62,241 nt of DNA, from positions 1-62,241 of IMG/VR virus record IMGVR_UViG_3300031857_000175; one strand, given 5' to 3'. A model generated the notes under the pieces. It ran no database searches. It saw nothing but the letters and a program-made list of their open reading frames with translations, and was not told the DNA's origin. Origin of the DNA: a virus. Taxonomy: Duplodnaviria > Caudoviricetes. A program made the translations under genes and the position numbers. This document shows, piece by piece, positions 35,488 through 49,230 of this stretch; position 1 is the stretch's first letter, and every line of letters begins with the position of its first letter.

Positions 35488-38400
35488 ATGTTTTTGCGCG
35501 GATGGCGGTGGCCTAGAAAACTTTGGTATTTTTCGGGCGGCATTCTTCCACTGAATGCCACGGTTACGCCTGTTGCAGCAGACGCTATCGGAACGTCCGT
35601 TGGTCGTCCGATGGTCGTCATCGACGACGGCCTCGTCCCTGAGGCCTTTGGGGCAATCGGAACCTCCGTAACGCCCGTCATAAGTATCATCGATACCTTT
35701 TCGCCGCAGACCTCTCCCGCCATCGGCACGTCTGCCTCTCCGACGGTACACGTCTCCGACGTCAGCGTTCCTGAGGTTTCTGACGCAGTAGGCGCACCCT
35801 CGGAGCTGACGGTTCACGTCTCTGACGTGGTCACCCCCGACGCCTCGGACGCAATTGGGTCTTCTGCTCAGGCTCAGGTCGTAGTTTCTGACACCTTCAC
35901 GCCTGACGTTGCCTTCGCGCTCGGCACAGTTTCGAACGTCTTTATCTCAGTCTCAGACTTCGTGGTGCCCGCAACAGCAGACGCCAAGGGTAGTGTGGCC
36001 TACCCGATCGTCATTATCGGCGATTGGATCACGCCCTCAAGCGAGCCCGCCGTAGGGACCGTTGCCTACGCCACGGTTCACGTCTCCGATTCGTTCGACA
36101 CTACCGTCGCAGACGCTATCGGCACCTCCGCCTTGGCTAGGGCCATCGTCGCAGTCTCGCCCGAGACCAGCGATGCCACCGGTACGGTGGCTGTGCCTCT
36201 GATTGCCCTTGCGGTTTCGCCCACCACTACAGCCGCTGTGGGGGCTTCGGGCGAGGAAGGTCTTTTCATCAACGTCACCCAGACGGTTGAGGGTACCCTG
36301 CTGTTCGCAGGGCCTACCCGCATCGTCTTGGGGGCGGCTGCCTTCGCGACCCCGGGCGAGTACGACCTCTTCCGGTACACACCAGGCTCGTTCCCCGGCG
36401 GCCAGGGTGCCCTCGACACGTACGTCACGATCGACACCTCTGCCGTCCCGAACTTCTTCGTCGCCGCCCTGACTGACGATCCTGCCACTGGGCGTGTGTT
36501 CCTGCGCCTGCTGCAGCGCTTGGTTCACGTCTCTGACAGCTTCACCCCTGCGACCTCGGCGGCCGTCGGAACCTCGGCAGATGCCTTGGTGGCCTCTGGT
36601 CTCTCCCCGCAGGCAAGCGACGCAGTCGGTACCGAAGCTACAACGCTGCCGAGCGTTGCCTACTCGCCCTTGGCTGCGGCAGCCCTCGGGACGGAATCCG
36701 TCACCACCGTACACGTCTCAGATGTCTTCCGACCTGAGGCGGCCCACGCTAGAGGAACAGAGTCTTACCCAGTCGTCATTATCGGCGATTGGATCACGCC
36801 CTCTAGCGAGTCTGCGGCCGGCACGTCTGCCAGCCCGACTGTTCACGTCTCTGACGCAGTTACGGTAGAGGTCTCCGACGCCGTCGGTACGGTATCTAAC
36901 ATTCAGATAGGCTCGGCCCTCGTGCCGGGCACGACAGACGCACTCGGCACCTCTACCTCGCCCACGGTGCACGTCTCTGACGTCTACGAGCCCGATGCGG
37001 CTGACGCAGTCGGCACGGTCTCGGACGCCCTTGTGGCGGCTTCCTTCGCGCCCACGGTGTCCGACGCCGTTGGCACGGCAGCCGGGGCAACCGCACACGT
37101 TTCGGATTCCGTAACGCCCGATGCGGTCAATGCCATCGGCACGAGCACTGATGCTAGCGTTGCGCTCGCTCCCACCCTTACGGCAGCTGACGCTTCGGGT
37201 ACGGCGGCCACGCCTGCGGTTCACGTCTCTGACGTGTTCCAGGTCACGACGGCCAACGCCGTAGGCACCGTTTCGTACCCAGCGGTCATCATAGGCGACG
37301 CAGTAACCCCCGAGAGCTACCCGGCGCTCGGCACTTCGGCAACGCCTTCTGTTCACGTCTCCGACGTGGTTACGCCCGATATTACCGACGCTGTCGGCGC
37401 GTCGGCGGATGCTCTGGTTGGAAGCGCGCTCAGTCCAAGCACGTCCGACGCGCTTGGAGTGGCGACTGATGCACTGGTAAGTCTGTTCTTCGTGCCGGAG
37501 GCGCTCGCCGCCGTCGGTACCTCGGCGGATGCTCTCGTGACGGTGTCGGATACCTTCGAGCCCACGGCTGAGAACGCTATCGGCACGAGCGCGAGCGTTT
37601 TCGCAGTTATCTCGTTTATTCCCGCCGTGCAGGATGCCCTCGGGACTGCTTCCGAGACCTCGGTCGTCGTGTCGGATAGCTTCACGCCGGCTGACGCTCA
37701 CGACGGCGTCGGAACGAGCTCTGACGCACAGGTTTCGATCTCTGAGGTCTTCACGCCCACCGTTTCCGACGCGATCGGTACGTCGGAGGACGCAACCTCA
37801 GTCACCTCGAAGACTTTCACGGTCTCCGCTTCCGACGCACTCGGTACTTCTGAATCGGCCATCCCAATGGTCGACGATGCGTTCTCGCCCTCGACTACCG
37901 CAGCCGTCGGTACGTCTGTCGACGCCGTAATCTCGATCTCCGACTCCGCGACCCCCGAGACCTCCGACGCAGTCGGCACCGTTTCTGACACGACGGTTTC
38001 TGTCTCGGTGCGAGTCACCCCCGGAGCTACCGACGCAGAGGGTATGTTTGAGGACGCCATCGTGGCGGTCTCTGACAGCTTCACTCCTGAAGCCCCGAAC
38101 GCCGTCGGAACGGCCTCAGAGGTCACAGCTCACGTTTCCGACAGAGTTACCCCCGAGATCTCTGACGCCATTGGCACCTCGGCCGCAGCGAATATTTCGA
38201 TCTCCAAGATTTACACCCCGAGCACGATGGATGCTAAGGGTACCGCGACCTACCCGGTGGTCATCATCGGCGACTGGGTCACGCCTTCCAGCGAGTCTGC
38301 CCTCGGAACGTCCTCGACTCCGACCGTCCACGTTTCCGACTTCGTCGTGCCTGAAGTCGCCGATGCCCTCGGGACCTCTTCGACGTCCGTGGCGGTGGTC

Positions 38401-48750: not shown

Positions 48751-49230
48751 ATGGCCTCTTCGTTCTACCCCAAGGTTTTTGAGAAGGTCCTCTCTGGCGA
48801 GCTCGACCTGTCGGGCGGCGCTGGCTCTGACACCGTCAAGCTTCTTCTGCTCGGCGACTACGCCACGTACCCCCTCGACGTCACCCACGAGTTCGTTTCG
48901 AACCTCTCGGGTGAGCTTGTCGACGGCGCTGGCGGCGTCATCAACTACGCCCGCAAGACCATCCCGGTCACCCTCTCGTACAACAGCGAGGCTGGCCTCG
49001 AGGGTTGCGACCTCAACTTCGCGCTGACCACCAACGCCATCTGGGGTCCGGACGACGGCGGCGCTGCCACGTTCACCACGGGCCACGCGATCCTCTTCGT
49101 GGACAAGGGCGGCGCTGACTCGGCCAACCCGCTGCTCTACTACTTCGACCTGTCGGCCAACCAGGTCGTCAGCTCGGGTACCTTCGAGCTCCGCAATCCG
49201 ACCACGGCGCCGCGCGTCCGCCGCGCGTAA
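48751..49230 (+). CDS. Putative high-copy fibre subunit
   Basis: FYPKVFEKVLSGELDL...DTVKLLLL...HEFVSNLSGEL...NYARKTI...PLLYYFDL. Capsid-like codon bias, own leader and terminator. Confidence 0.7.
   Translation: MASSFYPKVFEKVLSGELDLSGGAGSDTVKLLLLGDYATYPLDVTHEFVSNLSGELVDGAGGVINYARKTIPVTLSYNSEAGLEGCDLNFALTTNAIWGPDDGGAATFTTGHAILFVDKGGADSANPLLYYFDLSANQVVSSGTFELRNPTTAPRVRRA

What the first reader, a model, noticed from the sequence alone, without database searches (positions are those of the whole stretch)
35488..49230. Possible fibre 'ruler': about 60 extended 20-23 aa repeats plus two paralogous small subunits, one apparently highly expressed
Seen: the repeats (e.g. SPQTSPAIGTSASPTVHVSDVS, TPDASDAIGSSAQAQVVVSDTF) are too short to be globular domains and have an invariant A-[VLI]-G plus a beta-strand-like half. 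ORFs 46101 (137 aa) and 48751 (159 aa) are paralogs. 48751 has capsid-like codon bias, its own leader and a strong terminator. Inference: each repeat binds one subunit by strand donation, so the long protein sets filament length and branch positions, as a tape measure does for a tail. The repeat count is an estimate.
Basis: inference. Interest (0 to 1): 0.72.

Follow-up and report, generated by a model that had tools for sequence, protein, structure and literature searches.

The report
Giant beads-on-a-rope phage tail fibre
An uncultured freshwater phage with a contractile tail encodes a long protein of 61 short repeats that most likely acts as a rope on which pairs of a small, very highly expressed protein are threaded, a much enlarged version of a fibre type first seen by cryo-EM in 2023.

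Summary
ORF 35488-40536 (1682 aa) has 61 units of 20-24 aa with an invariant Gly. ORFs 46101 and 48751 are distant paralogs, both phrog_644. ORF 48751 has the strongest codon bias of 47 ORFs, a conserved leader and a 13-bp terminator.

The reading is largely supported, and the mechanism is already known. The bead model resembles GP4 Fiber I, the Bas63 and Sf14 whiskers, and a T4 gp7 domain. In those solved fibres, bead dimers wrap an extended rope by beta-augmentation, about 24 rope residues per dimer (PMC12609058, PMC13730344).

A co-fold of four beads with four repeats passed: ipSAE 0.62, best control 0.00. Two beads clasp about one repeat, with A-x-G at their junction. Nine repeats alone gave no confident fold (pLDDT 40).

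- A dimer, not one subunit, per repeat.
- Branching is untested.

The rope repeat is rare, with 4 hits among 1.84 billion representatives. Sixty-one sites far exceed the 2-11 in solved fibres. Earlier notes of this scan report the same architecture on other, unrelated DNA (unchecked). All evidence here is computational.

The parts
34646..35479 (+). 277-aa protein directly upstream of the rope gene. It is a conserved neighbour and a candidate anchor or adaptor for the rope's N-terminus; its function is unknown.
   Evidence: 44% identical (E 9e-58) to the ORF directly upstream of the rope homolog in L019. No Pfam or PHROG hit. Raised codon bias, CAI 0.55. The anchor role is inference.
35488..35565 (+). 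Rope protein (P0001), N-terminal 26-28 aa (MFLRGWRW...), probably the attachment peptide.
   Evidence: The first 28 residues are identical in P0008, which is only 28% identical overall. They are similar in L019 P0033. The attachment role is inference.
35566..36249 (+). Rope repeat block 1 (aa 27-254, 11 units; the last unit is split by insert 1).
   Evidence: HMM rows; unit starts. Residues 109-135 are the stretch clasped by two bead copies in the co-fold.
36250..36519 (+). Inserted globular domain 1 (aa 255-344), with a 'G.Y.LF.Y' motif, lying inside a repeat unit.
   Evidence: The unit begins at aa 244-254 and its second half resumes at aa 345-352. No Pfam or NCBIfam hit. It is paralogous to insert 2 and to the C-terminal domains by inspection.
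36520..38505 (+). Rope repeat blocks 2-3 (aa 345-1006, 31 units).
   Evidence: Residues 756-953 folded alone gave pLDDT 40.2.
38506..38772 (+). Inserted globular domain 2 (aa 1007-1095), again inside a repeat unit.
   Evidence: Split unit at aa 996-1006 and 1096-1102.
38773..39996 (+). Rope repeat block 4 (aa 1096-1503, 19 units).
39997..40536 (+). Two C-terminal globular domains of the rope protein (aa 1504-1682). This is the variable tip, and a weakly PATR-like one.
   Evidence: Identity to the close relative falls from 0.95-1.00 over the first 1,200 residues (0.85-0.91 over 1,201-1,500) to 0.68-0.73 here, with a 19-aa insertion in the relative. TIGR02601 gives a sub-threshold match, E 0.057. 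The domains are conserved in P0008 and P0032.
40548..43100 (+). PATR beta-helix protein 1 (850 aa), a likely receptor-binding fibre or spike.
   Evidence: Pfam PF12951 E 2.1e-17; TIGR02601 E 2e-16.
43113..45725 (+). PATR beta-helix protein 2 (870 aa), a tandem paralog of protein 1. The close relative G001 has only one gene at this place.
   Evidence: PF12951 E 1.4e-10. L002 gene order.
45738..46076 (+). 112-aa conserved small protein (P0007), function unknown.
   Evidence: phrog_18037 E 1.1e-4. 46% identical to L019 P0035, which directly follows the rope gene there.
46101..46514 (+). Second, divergent bead paralog (P0004, 137 aa) with moderate codon bias.
   Evidence: phrog_644 E 2.8e-13. 21% identical to P0006. 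CAI 0.46. Absent from the L019 module. A role as a second bead type is inference by analogy with A1002 gp40/gp41.
46629..48632 (+). PATR beta-helix protein 3 (667 aa).
   Evidence: PF12951 E 1.4e-8. It shares the C-terminal 'RYGG.LTF...S.L.(I/L)G.AA' ending with the other two and with L019 P0034.
48633..48750 (+). Conserved leader of the bead gene.
   Evidence: 9-locus alignment with a run of 27 invariant columns (window 48685-48711) and 84% mean identity. The consensus fold has two hairpins and pairs AACCCC with the Shine-Dalgarno GGAGUU; only 1 compensatory pair. No Rfam match. Unique in the window.
48751..49230 (+). Bead protein (P0006, 159 aa), highly codon-biased.
   Evidence: RNA-library contigs of 4 of 4 laid runs lie on 48708-49262.
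49260..49290 (+). Intrinsic-terminator-like hairpin after the bead gene.
   Evidence: 13-bp stem, 8 GC pairs, T-rich tail. A comparable hairpin and T-run follow the L019 homolog.

Best explanation
The region is the distal fibre module of an uncultured myovirus. It most likely builds a very long 'chain-like' (beads-on-a-rope) fibre.

The 1682-aa protein is a single-chain rope. It has a short conserved N-terminal peptide that anchors it to the baseplate. It then has 61 tandem docking units of 20-24 residues, two small globular domains inserted inside units, and two variable globular domains at the tip.

Dimers of the 159-aa protein from 48751 clasp each unit. The two subunits meet over the invariant A-x-G. 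The flanking rope strands complete the beads' beta-sandwiches by strand augmentation. The number of units therefore fixes the number of beads and the fibre length.

Derived figures, all inferred:
- about 122 beads per rope;
- roughly 165 nm, if the spacing is as in A1002 (about 300 A for 11 dimers).

The large molar excess of bead over rope would explain the bead gene's capsid-like codon bias, its own leader and its terminator.

Shown here: the repeats, the paralogy, the codon bias, the conserved synteny, the fold likeness, and a passing co-fold model.

Inferred: dimer-per-unit occupancy along the whole rope, virion location, copy number, length, and any role of 46101 as a second bead type.
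For: (1) Fold. The AF2 model of P0006 has pLDDT 85.8 and pTM 0.83. It shows an N-terminal strand at residues 2-5, a helix at 7-15 and a beta-sandwich. Among 48,161 PDB representatives, the 8 best matches are all phage tail, neck or baseplate chains. In the second look, the top 13 (Z 11.1 to 4.7) are all such chains, and the next hit drops to Z 2.8.

The hits include the known beads:
- GP4 Fiber I, 8jou_a: Z 7.6, rmsd 3.3 A, 120 aligned.
- Bas63 whisker entry, 9mt4_K: Z 6.4.
- Sf14 neck, 9c39_K: Z 6.3.

(2) Known mechanism, from passages read. In Bas63, whisker dimers wrap the collar rope 'such as beads on a string'. The rope runs through grooves and completes incomplete sandwiches. The whisker has an N-terminal helix, and residues 1-5 take part in augmentation (PMC12609058).

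In A1002, 11 dimers of two paralogous proteins (147 and 171 aa) each form an augmented beta-sheet with a rope about 300 A long. That rope spans about 268 residues, or about 24 per dimer. GP4 has 5 dimers on a separately encoded rope (PMC13730344).

(3) Co-fold. Four copies of P0006 were folded with rope aa 72-159. ipSAE was 0.69, 0.50 and 0.62 (median 0.62); the best of 3 controls was 0.00. That mark was reached by 116 of 157 solved complexes and 2 of 215 mismatched pairs, and these counts hold only roughly here. The runs share at least 58% of contacts. Partner pLDDT was 45-52.

In the best run, two copies touch partner residues 38-64 (rope aa 109-135). A-I-G lies at the junction, against residues 154-158 and residue 5 of both copies.

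(4) Conservation at the interface. 20 of 35 predicted interface residues are at least 90% conserved in the 23-row family alignment, against 30 of the other 124 residues. Odds ratio 4.2, Fisher p 3.9e-4.

(5) Nine repeats alone gave pLDDT 40.2 and pTM 0.34, with no residue at 70 or above.

(6) Abundance proxies. Codon bias is the strongest of 47 ORFs. The L019 homolog has the highest C3 (0.60) and the second-lowest ENC (34.0) of 16 ORFs.

RNA-library contigs were found using the whole 4.1-kb stretch. They lie on 48708-49262 in 4 of 4 laid runs: 8 of 12 pieces, each with 0-3 differing letters.

(7) Synteny. Upstream ORF, rope, P0007-like, PATR and bead, followed by a gene in the lysin's position, are kept in L019. 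Identities are 44%, 32%, 46% and 48% for the four components I compared pairwise (upstream ORF, rope, P0007-like, bead); PATR and the lysin-position gene were not compared.

(8) Homologs carry monomeric beta-propellers in mid-chain (P0008 and P0033, PF17164). Both globular inserts sit inside a repeat unit. Both facts fit a single-chain string.
Against: - No experiment exists. The phage is uncultured and has no close isolate: megablast and tblastn against 50,697 phage records found nothing for the rope, and the capsid protein is at most 25% identical to any.
- The fold scores to the beads are middling (Z 6.3-7.7). The best matches are a domain of T4 gp7 (Z 11.1) and its KP1 homolog (Z 12.0), which are baseplate wedge proteins, not beads.
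- There is no sequence link to the bead family. Pfam Gp80 (PF23140) has no match in the window at E up to 10. Only 2 of 23 relatives match it, weakly, at E 0.024 or worse. A profile search of PDB sequences gave 0 hits at E up to 10.
- The co-fold used my own in-register alignment of repeat windows and four copies, unlike the tool's calibration.
- The rope's own pLDDT in the co-fold is under 50 in one run.
- Only one of the two possible dimers was placed with confidence.
- The co-fold controls were folded natural proteins, not other extended peptides.
- The pass may reflect the model's memory of solved chain-like fibres.
- The low pLDDT of the repeats alone rests on a 10-row alignment. A homotrimeric shaft would give the same result.
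- phrog_644 relatives in Gordonia siphophages sit among minor tail genes, with no rope annotated nearby.
- My repeat profile found no such rope in the flanks of the 10 more distant viral loci L007-L016. That profile is specific to this repeat and weak even on L019 (13 rows).
- RNA-library contigs can hold DNA and cannot rank genes.
Confidence: 0.7

Rival explanations
1. The 1682-aa protein is a conventional homotrimeric fibre shaft, such as a triple beta-spiral or beta-helix built from the 20-22-aa repeats. The phrog_644 proteins are low-copy adaptors that join fibres to the baseplate or to each other. The bead gene's codon bias would then have another cause.
For: - Phage fibres are usually trimers (established knowledge).
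- A short repeat with a conserved Gly and alternating hydrophobic residues resembles known shaft repeats (recalled, not tested).
- The monomer fold would also be poor for an obligate trimer.
- The bead fold is best matched by a T4 gp7 baseplate domain, Z 11.1-12.0.
Against: - The co-fold with beads passed, 0.62 against 0.00.
- Homologs carry monomeric beta-propellers and globular domains in mid-chain, even inside a repeat unit.
- Codon bias equal to that of the capsid gene is hard to explain for an adaptor present at 6-18 copies.
- The repeat region has only 50 aromatic residues in 1298 and is strongly acidic (131 D+E against 13 K+R), which is a thin core for a self-standing rod.
Confidence: 0.15
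2. The phrog_644 proteins belong to the PATR beta-helix proteins that precede them. They would act as caps, adaptors or decoration of those fibres. The repeat protein would be an independent fibre or a disordered spacer.
For: - Each phrog_644 gene follows a PATR gene: 46101 follows 43113 and 45738, and 48751 follows 46629.
- L019 keeps one PATR gene and one bead gene side by side.
- All four PATR proteins share a conserved C-terminal ending that could be a docking motif.
Against:
- The rope-bead co-fold passed, with the conserved faces of the bead at the interface.
- The Gordonia phrog_644 genes have no PATR neighbours annotated.
- Three or fewer fibres per vertex would not call for capsid-level expression (inference).
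Confidence: 0.08
3. The 48751 product is not a virion part. It would be an abundant assembly chaperone for the large beta-helix and repeat proteins, or an unrelated highly expressed late protein.
For: - Small genes after fibre genes are often fibre-assembly chaperones (established knowledge).
- High expression is compatible with a stoichiometric chaperone.
Against: - Every strong structural match is to a virion component resolved by cryo-EM or crystallography.
- No chaperone family was hit in Pfam, NCBIfam or PHROGs.
Confidence: 0.05

Closest known systems
Chain-like fibre of Pseudomonas podophage A1002: nozzle-rope gp39 with fibre dimers of gp40 and gp41 (PMC13730344; passages read)
   Same: - Small bead proteins (147 and 171 aa there, 137 and 159 aa here) present as two paralogs.
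- Dimers dock in series on an extended rope, about 24 rope residues per dimer there against 20-24 per unit here.
- Each dimer forms an augmented beta-sheet with the rope.
- The rope sets the number of dimers.
   Different: - A1002 is a podophage. Its rope is one domain of a 620-aa nozzle protein and carries 11 dimers wound round the tail tube.
- Here the rope is a separate 1682-aa protein encoded after the baseplate genes of a contractile-tailed phage.
- It has 61 sequence-regular tandem units, globular domains inserted in the rope, and variable tip domains.
- No sequence similarity was found. The A1002 coordinates were not in the structure library I searched.
Fiber I of Ralstonia podophage GP4: gp80 dimers on a separately encoded rope, with an Ig-like fibre-tail adaptor (PDB 8JOU; Pfam PF23140; Zheng et al. 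2023, J Mol Biol 435:168258, seen only as reference 43 of PMC13730344)
   Same: - The rope is a separate polypeptide.
- The bead fold matches at Z 7.6, rmsd 3.3 A, 120 of 136 residues aligned.
- The bead is about 140 aa.
   Different: - Five dimers against a predicted 61.
- The GP4 fibre points up to the capsid from a podophage tail.
- The Pfam Gp80 model does not match the window.
- No Ig-like adaptor was identified here.
Collar-whisker complex of the myophages Bas63 and Sf14 (PDB 9MT4 and 9C39; PMC12609058; passages read)
   Same: - The host phage has a contractile tail.
- The bead has N-terminal residues 1-5 and an N-terminal helix at the dimer interface, plus an incomplete sandwich that the rope completes. 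The P0006 model has a strand at 2-5 and a helix at 7-15, and residues 2-5 lie in the predicted interface.
- Z 6.4 and 6.3.
   Different: - The whiskers sit at the neck.
- Their rope is a short N-terminal extension of the collar protein with two dimers.
- Here the genes lie after the baseplate genes and before lysis, and the rope is about 30 times longer.
Tail tape measure protein
   Same: One long polypeptide whose length would set the length of a multi-subunit assembly.
   Different: - A tape measure is largely helical, lies inside the tail tube and is encoded before the baseplate hub (established knowledge).
- This protein is predicted strand-rich or unstructured and acidic.
- It is encoded after the baseplate genes.
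- It would remain as the core of an external fibre.
Beta-sandwich domain of T4 gp7 and its Klebsiella phage KP1 homolog (PDB 5IV5 chain BJ, 9F4A chain AY)
   Same: This is the best fold match of the bead model: Z 11.1 and 12.0, rmsd 2.8 and 2.5 A, 130-131 residues aligned.
   Different: - These are domains within baseplate wedge proteins of about 1030 aa, not free small proteins.
- The aligned residues are spread over chain residues 114-625.
- No rope partner is known to me for them (recalled).

Membership tests
Chain-like (beads-on-a-rope) phage fibre: GP4 Fiber I, VP1, A1002, Bas63/Sf14 collar-whisker | A small bead protein (about 100-170 aa) with the gp80/whisker fold: N-terminal strand and helix plus an incomplete beta-sandwich. 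| tested here: met
   Model pLDDT 85.8, with a strand at 2-5 and a helix at 7-15. Z 7.6 to 8jou_a, 6.4 to 9mt4_K and 6.3 to 9c39_K. All 13 top hits are phage tail or neck parts, then Z drops to 2.8. Caveat: Z under 8 is middling, and a T4 gp7 domain scores higher.
Chain-like (beads-on-a-rope) phage fibre | An extended rope peptide with serial docking sites of roughly 24 residues that complete the beads' sheets by strand augmentation. | tested here: met
   61 units of 20-24 aa. Co-fold ipSAE 0.62 against a best control of 0.00. Two beads sit on about 27 rope residues centred on A-x-G. This is a model only; strand geometry was not inspected.
Chain-like (beads-on-a-rope) phage fibre | Beads bind as dimers. 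| tested here: inconclusive
   In the best run two copies contact the same rope stretch through the same faces. The bead-bead interface itself was not scored, and the other two copies were not confidently placed.
Chain-like (beads-on-a-rope) phage fibre | The rope has no autonomous globular fold. | tested here: met
   Nine repeats alone gave pLDDT 40.2 and pTM 0.34. This is weak: the alignment had 10 rows, and a trimer was not tested.
Chain-like (beads-on-a-rope) phage fibre | Bead present in the virion in large molar excess over the rope. | not testable with these tools
   Only proxies are available: the strongest codon bias of 47 ORFs, and RNA-library contigs on the bead gene in 4 of 4 laid runs.
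Chain-like (beads-on-a-rope) phage fibre | Rope anchored to the particle through a collar, adaptor or nozzle domain. | not tested
   There is only a conserved N-terminal 28-aa peptide and a conserved upstream 277-aa neighbour.
Pfam PF23140 (Gp80, podophage GP4 fiber I protein) | A match to the family model above its gathering score (27 bits). | tested here: not met
   No match in the six-frame window at E up to 10. P0006 has no Pfam hit. 2 of 23 family members match at E 0.024 or worse.
PHROG phrog_644 (function unknown) | A significant match to the family profile. | tested here: met
   P0004 E 2.8e-13 and P0006 E 2.9e-10. 23 of 23 members of A1 match, best E 7.2e-22.
Tail tape measure protein | Mostly alpha-helical, and encoded between the tail chaperone genes and the baseplate hub. 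| tested here: not met
   The model shows no helix of 4 or more residues. The gene lies after the baseplate wedge genes and before lysis.
Homotrimeric fibre shaft (triple beta-spiral or beta-helix) | The repeats self-associate as three chains. | not tested
PATR / autotransporter-associated beta-strand repeat proteins (PF12951, TIGR02601), for the three neighbouring large genes | Repeat matches above the curated cut-off. | tested here: met
   PF12951 bit scores are 63.3, 41.5 and 35.1 against a cut-off of 27. TIGR02601 bit scores are 59.4, 44.9 and 35.5 against a cut-off of 19.85.

The most novel reading that the evidence does not exclude
The fibre is not a simple chain but a branched, multi-receptor 'tree'. 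A single rope of about 165 nm would carry about 122 beads, of two kinds: the abundant 48751 product, and the 46101 product on a subset of units.

The four PATR-like globular domains built into the rope would be sockets. The separately encoded PATR beta-helix proteins would dock there through their shared C-terminal 'RYGG.LTF...IG.AA' ending, as if a bacterial PATR protein had been split in two.

Repeat count and insert positions would then encode both the length and the branch points. The conserved leader, which can sequester the Shine-Dalgarno sequence, would tune bead supply.
Probability: 0.15. Interest if true: 0.8.

Novelty: new variant of a known kind. Interest (0 to 1): 0.6.

Why it matters
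Chain-like fibres were recognised only in 2023-2026, in a handful of cultured phages with 2 to 11 bead dimers. If this module works the same way, three things follow.

- The principle scales to about 61 docking sites written as plain tandem repeats, so fibre length could change by simple gain or loss of units.
- The fibre type also occurs at the baseplate end of contractile-tailed phages of freshwater bacteria.
- The bead fold reaches into phrog_644, a sizeable family of unknown function that is also found in actinobacteriophage tail modules.

The module also offers a compact system for experiment: a rope fragment plus one bead protein. With it, donor-strand templating of a non-covalent polymer of defined length could be studied.

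Tried and rejected
Searches that found nothing:
- Megablast of 35488-49230 against phage records.
- tblastn of the rope and of PATR3 against phage records.
- Pfam, PHROG and NCBIfam scans of the rope and its insert domains. The only result was a sub-threshold TIGR02601 hit on the C-terminal domains.
- A profile of the bead family against PDB sequences: 0 hits at E up to 10.
- Foldseek of the bead model against the PDB: no match at E 0.001 or better.
- Rfam on 48400-49400.
- The leader motifs elsewhere in the window: only chance-level matches.
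- Earlier notes of this scan, by place and by sequence.

Things that misled or failed:
- P0030, a 2726-aa surface protein with 20-aa 'PEYT..VGT' repeats, matched the rope at E 8.9e-10. I take this as a periodicity or composition match, not homology.
- My first repeat-window alignment, A3 (68 overlapping windows), was aligned out of register by MAFFT, so I dropped it.
- The repeat count does not differ between the window and its 93%-identical relative. The 20-aa length difference is an insertion in the tip domain, so repeat-number variation among close relatives could not be shown.
- Charge complementarity was considered. The rope is very acidic, but the bead is also acidic overall (pI 4.5), so I make no claim from it.

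RNA runs:
- Most of 46000-48700 and 49290-50060 had no cover by RNA-library contigs.
- Four pieces elsewhere either carried 17-20 differing letters, so they are probably from other organisms, or were short pieces on PATR3.
- Contig ends differ between runs, so no transcript end is claimed.

Papers:
- No accession for A1002 or Bas63 could be taken from the papers' text. Their bead proteins therefore could not be scanned against PHROGs.
- A search for the Lilla1/KP1 paper found nothing.

Full report
CONTEXT

The window is a 62,241-bp IMG/VR virus record, linear and estimated 88% complete. PHROG scans place the following on the + strand:
- a portal (2230);
- a protease (3766);
- a major capsid protein (5170);
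- a tail sheath (11268);
- baseplate proteins (23851-27238).

An endolysin lies at 49313. A replication module lies on the - strand: UvsX-like recombinase, SSB, DNA polymerase and primase.

This is therefore a contractile-tailed phage, and the finding covers everything between the baseplate genes and the lysis genes. No cultured relative is close. The capsid protein is at most about 25% identical to those of SPO1-like and Thermus phages. The region has no megablast match among 50,697 phage records.

THE OBSERVATION

ORF 35488-40536 encodes 1682 residues. A profile made from its own 22-spaced units gave 63 rows. Two rows are the second halves of units interrupted by inserts of about 88 residues (aa 255-344 and 1007-1095). 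That leaves 61 units.

- Spacings: 22 (34 times), 20 (20), 23 (3) and 24 (1).
- Core: Gly 61 of 61, Ala at -2 in 59 of 61, Thr at +1 in 53 of 61. The middle residue is V, L or I in 52 of 61.
- After the last unit come two globular domains (aa 1504-1682). These share a 'G.Y.LF.Y' motif with the two inserts.

ORFs 46101 (P0004) and 48751 (P0006) both match phrog_644 and are 21% identical. No third copy exists in the window.

P0006 has the lowest ENC (27.4) and the highest CAI (0.82) of 47 ORFs. The capsid gene scores 31.2 and 0.79. P0006 is preceded by 118 nt of leader and followed by a 13-bp GC-rich hairpin with a T-run.

The three large genes between the rope and P0006 are PATR beta-helix proteins.

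HOW RARE IT IS, AND WHAT IS CONSERVED

A full HMMER scan of 1.84 billion representatives with repeat block aa 355-1005 found 4 proteins at E 0.001 or better.
- P0008 (1497 aa) is a true homolog.
- P0031 and P0032 are fragments of relatives.
- P0030 is a surface protein with 'PEYT..VGT' repeats, which I regard as a periodicity match.

P0008 is 28% identical overall, yet its first 28 residues are identical to the window's. It has about 38 consecutive units with a 'DG.GT' core, a beta-propeller (PF17164) in mid-chain, and the same two C-terminal domains.

A close relative phage (G001) has a rope that is 93% identical, with the same number of units. Its identity falls to 0.68-0.73 in the tip domains, where it has a 19-aa insertion. 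That pattern is typical of a host-recognition tip.

G001 has one PATR gene where the window has two.

A more distant phage contig (L019, 83.9 kb) keeps the whole module:
- a 273-aa upstream ORF (44% identical);
- a rope of 1882 aa (32% identical) with about 42 units and two propellers;
- a P0007-like ORF (46% identical);
- one PATR gene;
- a P0006-like ORF (48% identical);
- then a gene in the position of the window's endolysin.

WHAT THE SMALL PROTEIN LOOKS LIKE

With a 23-row alignment, AlphaFold2 gave a confident model: pLDDT 85.8, pTM 0.83. It has a strand at 2-5, a helix at 7-15 and a beta-sandwich.

Foldseek found nothing significant in the PDB. It did find 8 hits at E 0.001 or better among predicted viral structures, including the 502-aa structural protein of Agrobacterium phage 7-7-1.

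VIA-align against 48,161 PDB representatives, and then a second look at Foldseek's top 999 chains, put only phage tail, neck and baseplate chains at the top:

| Match | Z |
|---|---|
| KP1 baseplate chain | 12.0 |
| T4 gp7 | 11.1 |
| Bxb1 tail tip | 7.7 |
| GP4 Fiber I, 8jou_a (rmsd 3.3 A, 120 aligned) | 7.6 |
| HFTV1 tail | 7.0 |
| Bas63 connector, 9mt4_K | 6.4 |
| Sf14 neck | 6.3 |
| phiKZ, phi812 and A511 baseplate parts | 5.3-5.6 |
| 7-7-1 tail fibres | 4.7 |
| next hit | 2.8 |

THE KNOWN MECHANISM

Passages of PMC12609058 describe the Bas63 and Sf14 whiskers. Dimers of a small protein are wrapped 'such as beads on a string' round an N-terminal 'rope' of the collar protein. The rope runs through grooves and completes the whiskers' incomplete sandwiches. 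The authors call this complex homologous to GP4 Fiber-1 on its separately encoded rope.

Passages of PMC13730344 describe the A1002 'chain-like fibre':
- 11 dimers sit on a rope about 300 A long and about 268 residues in extent.
- The dimers are made by two paralogous proteins of 147 and 171 aa.
- Each dimer forms an augmented beta-sheet with the rope.
- For comparison, the paper notes five dimers in GP4 and at least three in VP1.

I know the GP4 paper only from that reference list.

The spacing of about 24 residues per dimer, the bead size and the pair of paralogs all parallel the window.

(a) Nine repeats alone (aa 756-953, 10-row in-register alignment) gave pLDDT 40.2 and pTM 0.34, with no residue at 70 or above. 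No stable solenoid is predicted, although a shallow alignment or an obligate oligomer would give the same result.

(b) Four copies of P0006 were co-folded with four repeats (aa 72-159, 23-row in-register alignment). The result passed:
- ipSAE 0.69, 0.50 and 0.62; median 0.62;
- best of three controls 0.00;
- at least 58% of contacts shared between runs;
- partner pLDDT 45-52.

The mark was reached by 116 of 157 solved complexes and 2 of 215 mismatched pairs in the tool's calibration. That calibration applies only roughly here, because I used my own alignments and several copies.

In the best run, two copies touch rope residues 109-135, about one unit plus its flanks. A-I-G lies at their junction, against residues 154-158 and residue 5 of both copies. 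One copy covers the N-terminal side and the other the C-terminal side.

The bead interface is residues 2-5, 83, 92, 113, 130-135 and 138-159. It is enriched in family-conserved positions: 20 of 35 against 30 of 124, p 3.9e-4.

(c) Abundance. Besides the codon bias, RNA-library contigs of 4 of 4 riverine metatranscriptome runs lie on 48708-49262. These runs were found using the whole 4.1-kb stretch. Eight of the 12 pieces lie there, with 0-3 differing letters each. Such contigs may hold DNA and cannot rank genes, so this is only a hint.

WEAKNESSES

- The fold scores to the beads are middling, and a baseplate wedge domain scores higher.
- Pfam's Gp80 model does not match the window and matches only 2 of 23 relatives, weakly. 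Membership of that family is therefore not shown; the likeness is in fold and in predicted mode of binding.
- The co-fold may draw on the model's memory of solved fibres.
- The co-fold controls were folded proteins, not extended peptides.
- phrog_644 genes in Gordonia siphophages lie among minor tail genes with no annotated rope.
- My repeat profile found no rope near the 10 distant viral loci L007-L016. That profile is narrow.
- The trimeric-shaft rival was not tested.

VERDICT

I put about 0.7 on a giant beads-on-a-rope fibre. In it, 61 units each dock a dimer of the 48751 product, which gives about 122 beads per rope. By A1002's spacing the fibre would be roughly 165 nm long. Both numbers are inferred.

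- the stoichiometry is a dimer per unit;
- branching is untested;
- the mechanism is already in print for much shorter fibres.

Earlier notes of this scan report the same architecture on other DNA, including ropes of 21, 63 and about 160 units. They are unchecked. By sequence they are unrelated to this family.

I class the finding as a new variant of a known kind.

Noticed in passing
window 48633-48750; also L002, L017-L023: The leader of the bead gene is better conserved than the protein. In 9 loci a run of 27 columns is invariant (window 48685-48711), although the proteins are 41-53% identical to P0006 in 7 of them. The first hairpin (GACACG/CGUGUC) shows one compensatory C-G to U-A change. 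The consensus fold pairs AACCCC with the Shine-Dalgarno GGAGUU, which would occlude it. No Rfam family matches, and the element is unique in the window. It may be a translational control or an mRNA-stabilising element.
   Followed up: partly
window 36217-36549 and 38473-38793: Both globular inserts of about 88 aa lie inside a repeat unit, between the A-x-G-A-S half and the 'V-H/Y-V-S-D' half. The rope register therefore continues across them.
   Followed up: partly
window 35488-35571; P0008: The first 28 residues of the rope are identical in a homolog that is only 28% identical overall. This looks like a mosaic: a constant attachment peptide with a swapped fibre body.
   Followed up: no
window 40548-48632; L002 4403-9882; L019 7197-9884: The number of PATR beta-helix genes varies among relatives: 3, 2 and 1. 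All end in a shared 'RYGG.LTF...S.L.(I/L)G.AA' sequence. That is about where bacterial PATR proteins, as I recall them, continue into a 'G.Y.LF.Y' domain like the ones built into the rope.
   Followed up: no
window 32979-35479: Three ORFs just upstream of the rope (112, 347 and 277 aa) have raised codon bias, CAI 0.55-0.60. The 347-aa ORF reads like a right-handed beta-helix, by inspection only. None has a family match.
   Followed up: no
window 14881-23017: Two very large ORFs (1449 and 1257 aa) between the tail tube region and the baseplate genes have no PHROG match. One is presumably the tape measure.
   Followed up: no
L005 7995-8432; L006 7986-8417: phrog_644 relatives in Gordonia siphophages (Forza gp106, Keelan gp56) are annotated as hypothetical. 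They sit between minor tail protein genes, just before the lysis genes. They may be beads of an unrecognised chain-like fibre. The Bxb1 tail-tip chain 9d93_Ra has the same fold, Z 7.7.
   Followed up: no
window 51627-52280: An HNH endonuclease gene (phrog_1872, E 1.2e-19) lies between the lysis region and the replication module.
   Followed up: no
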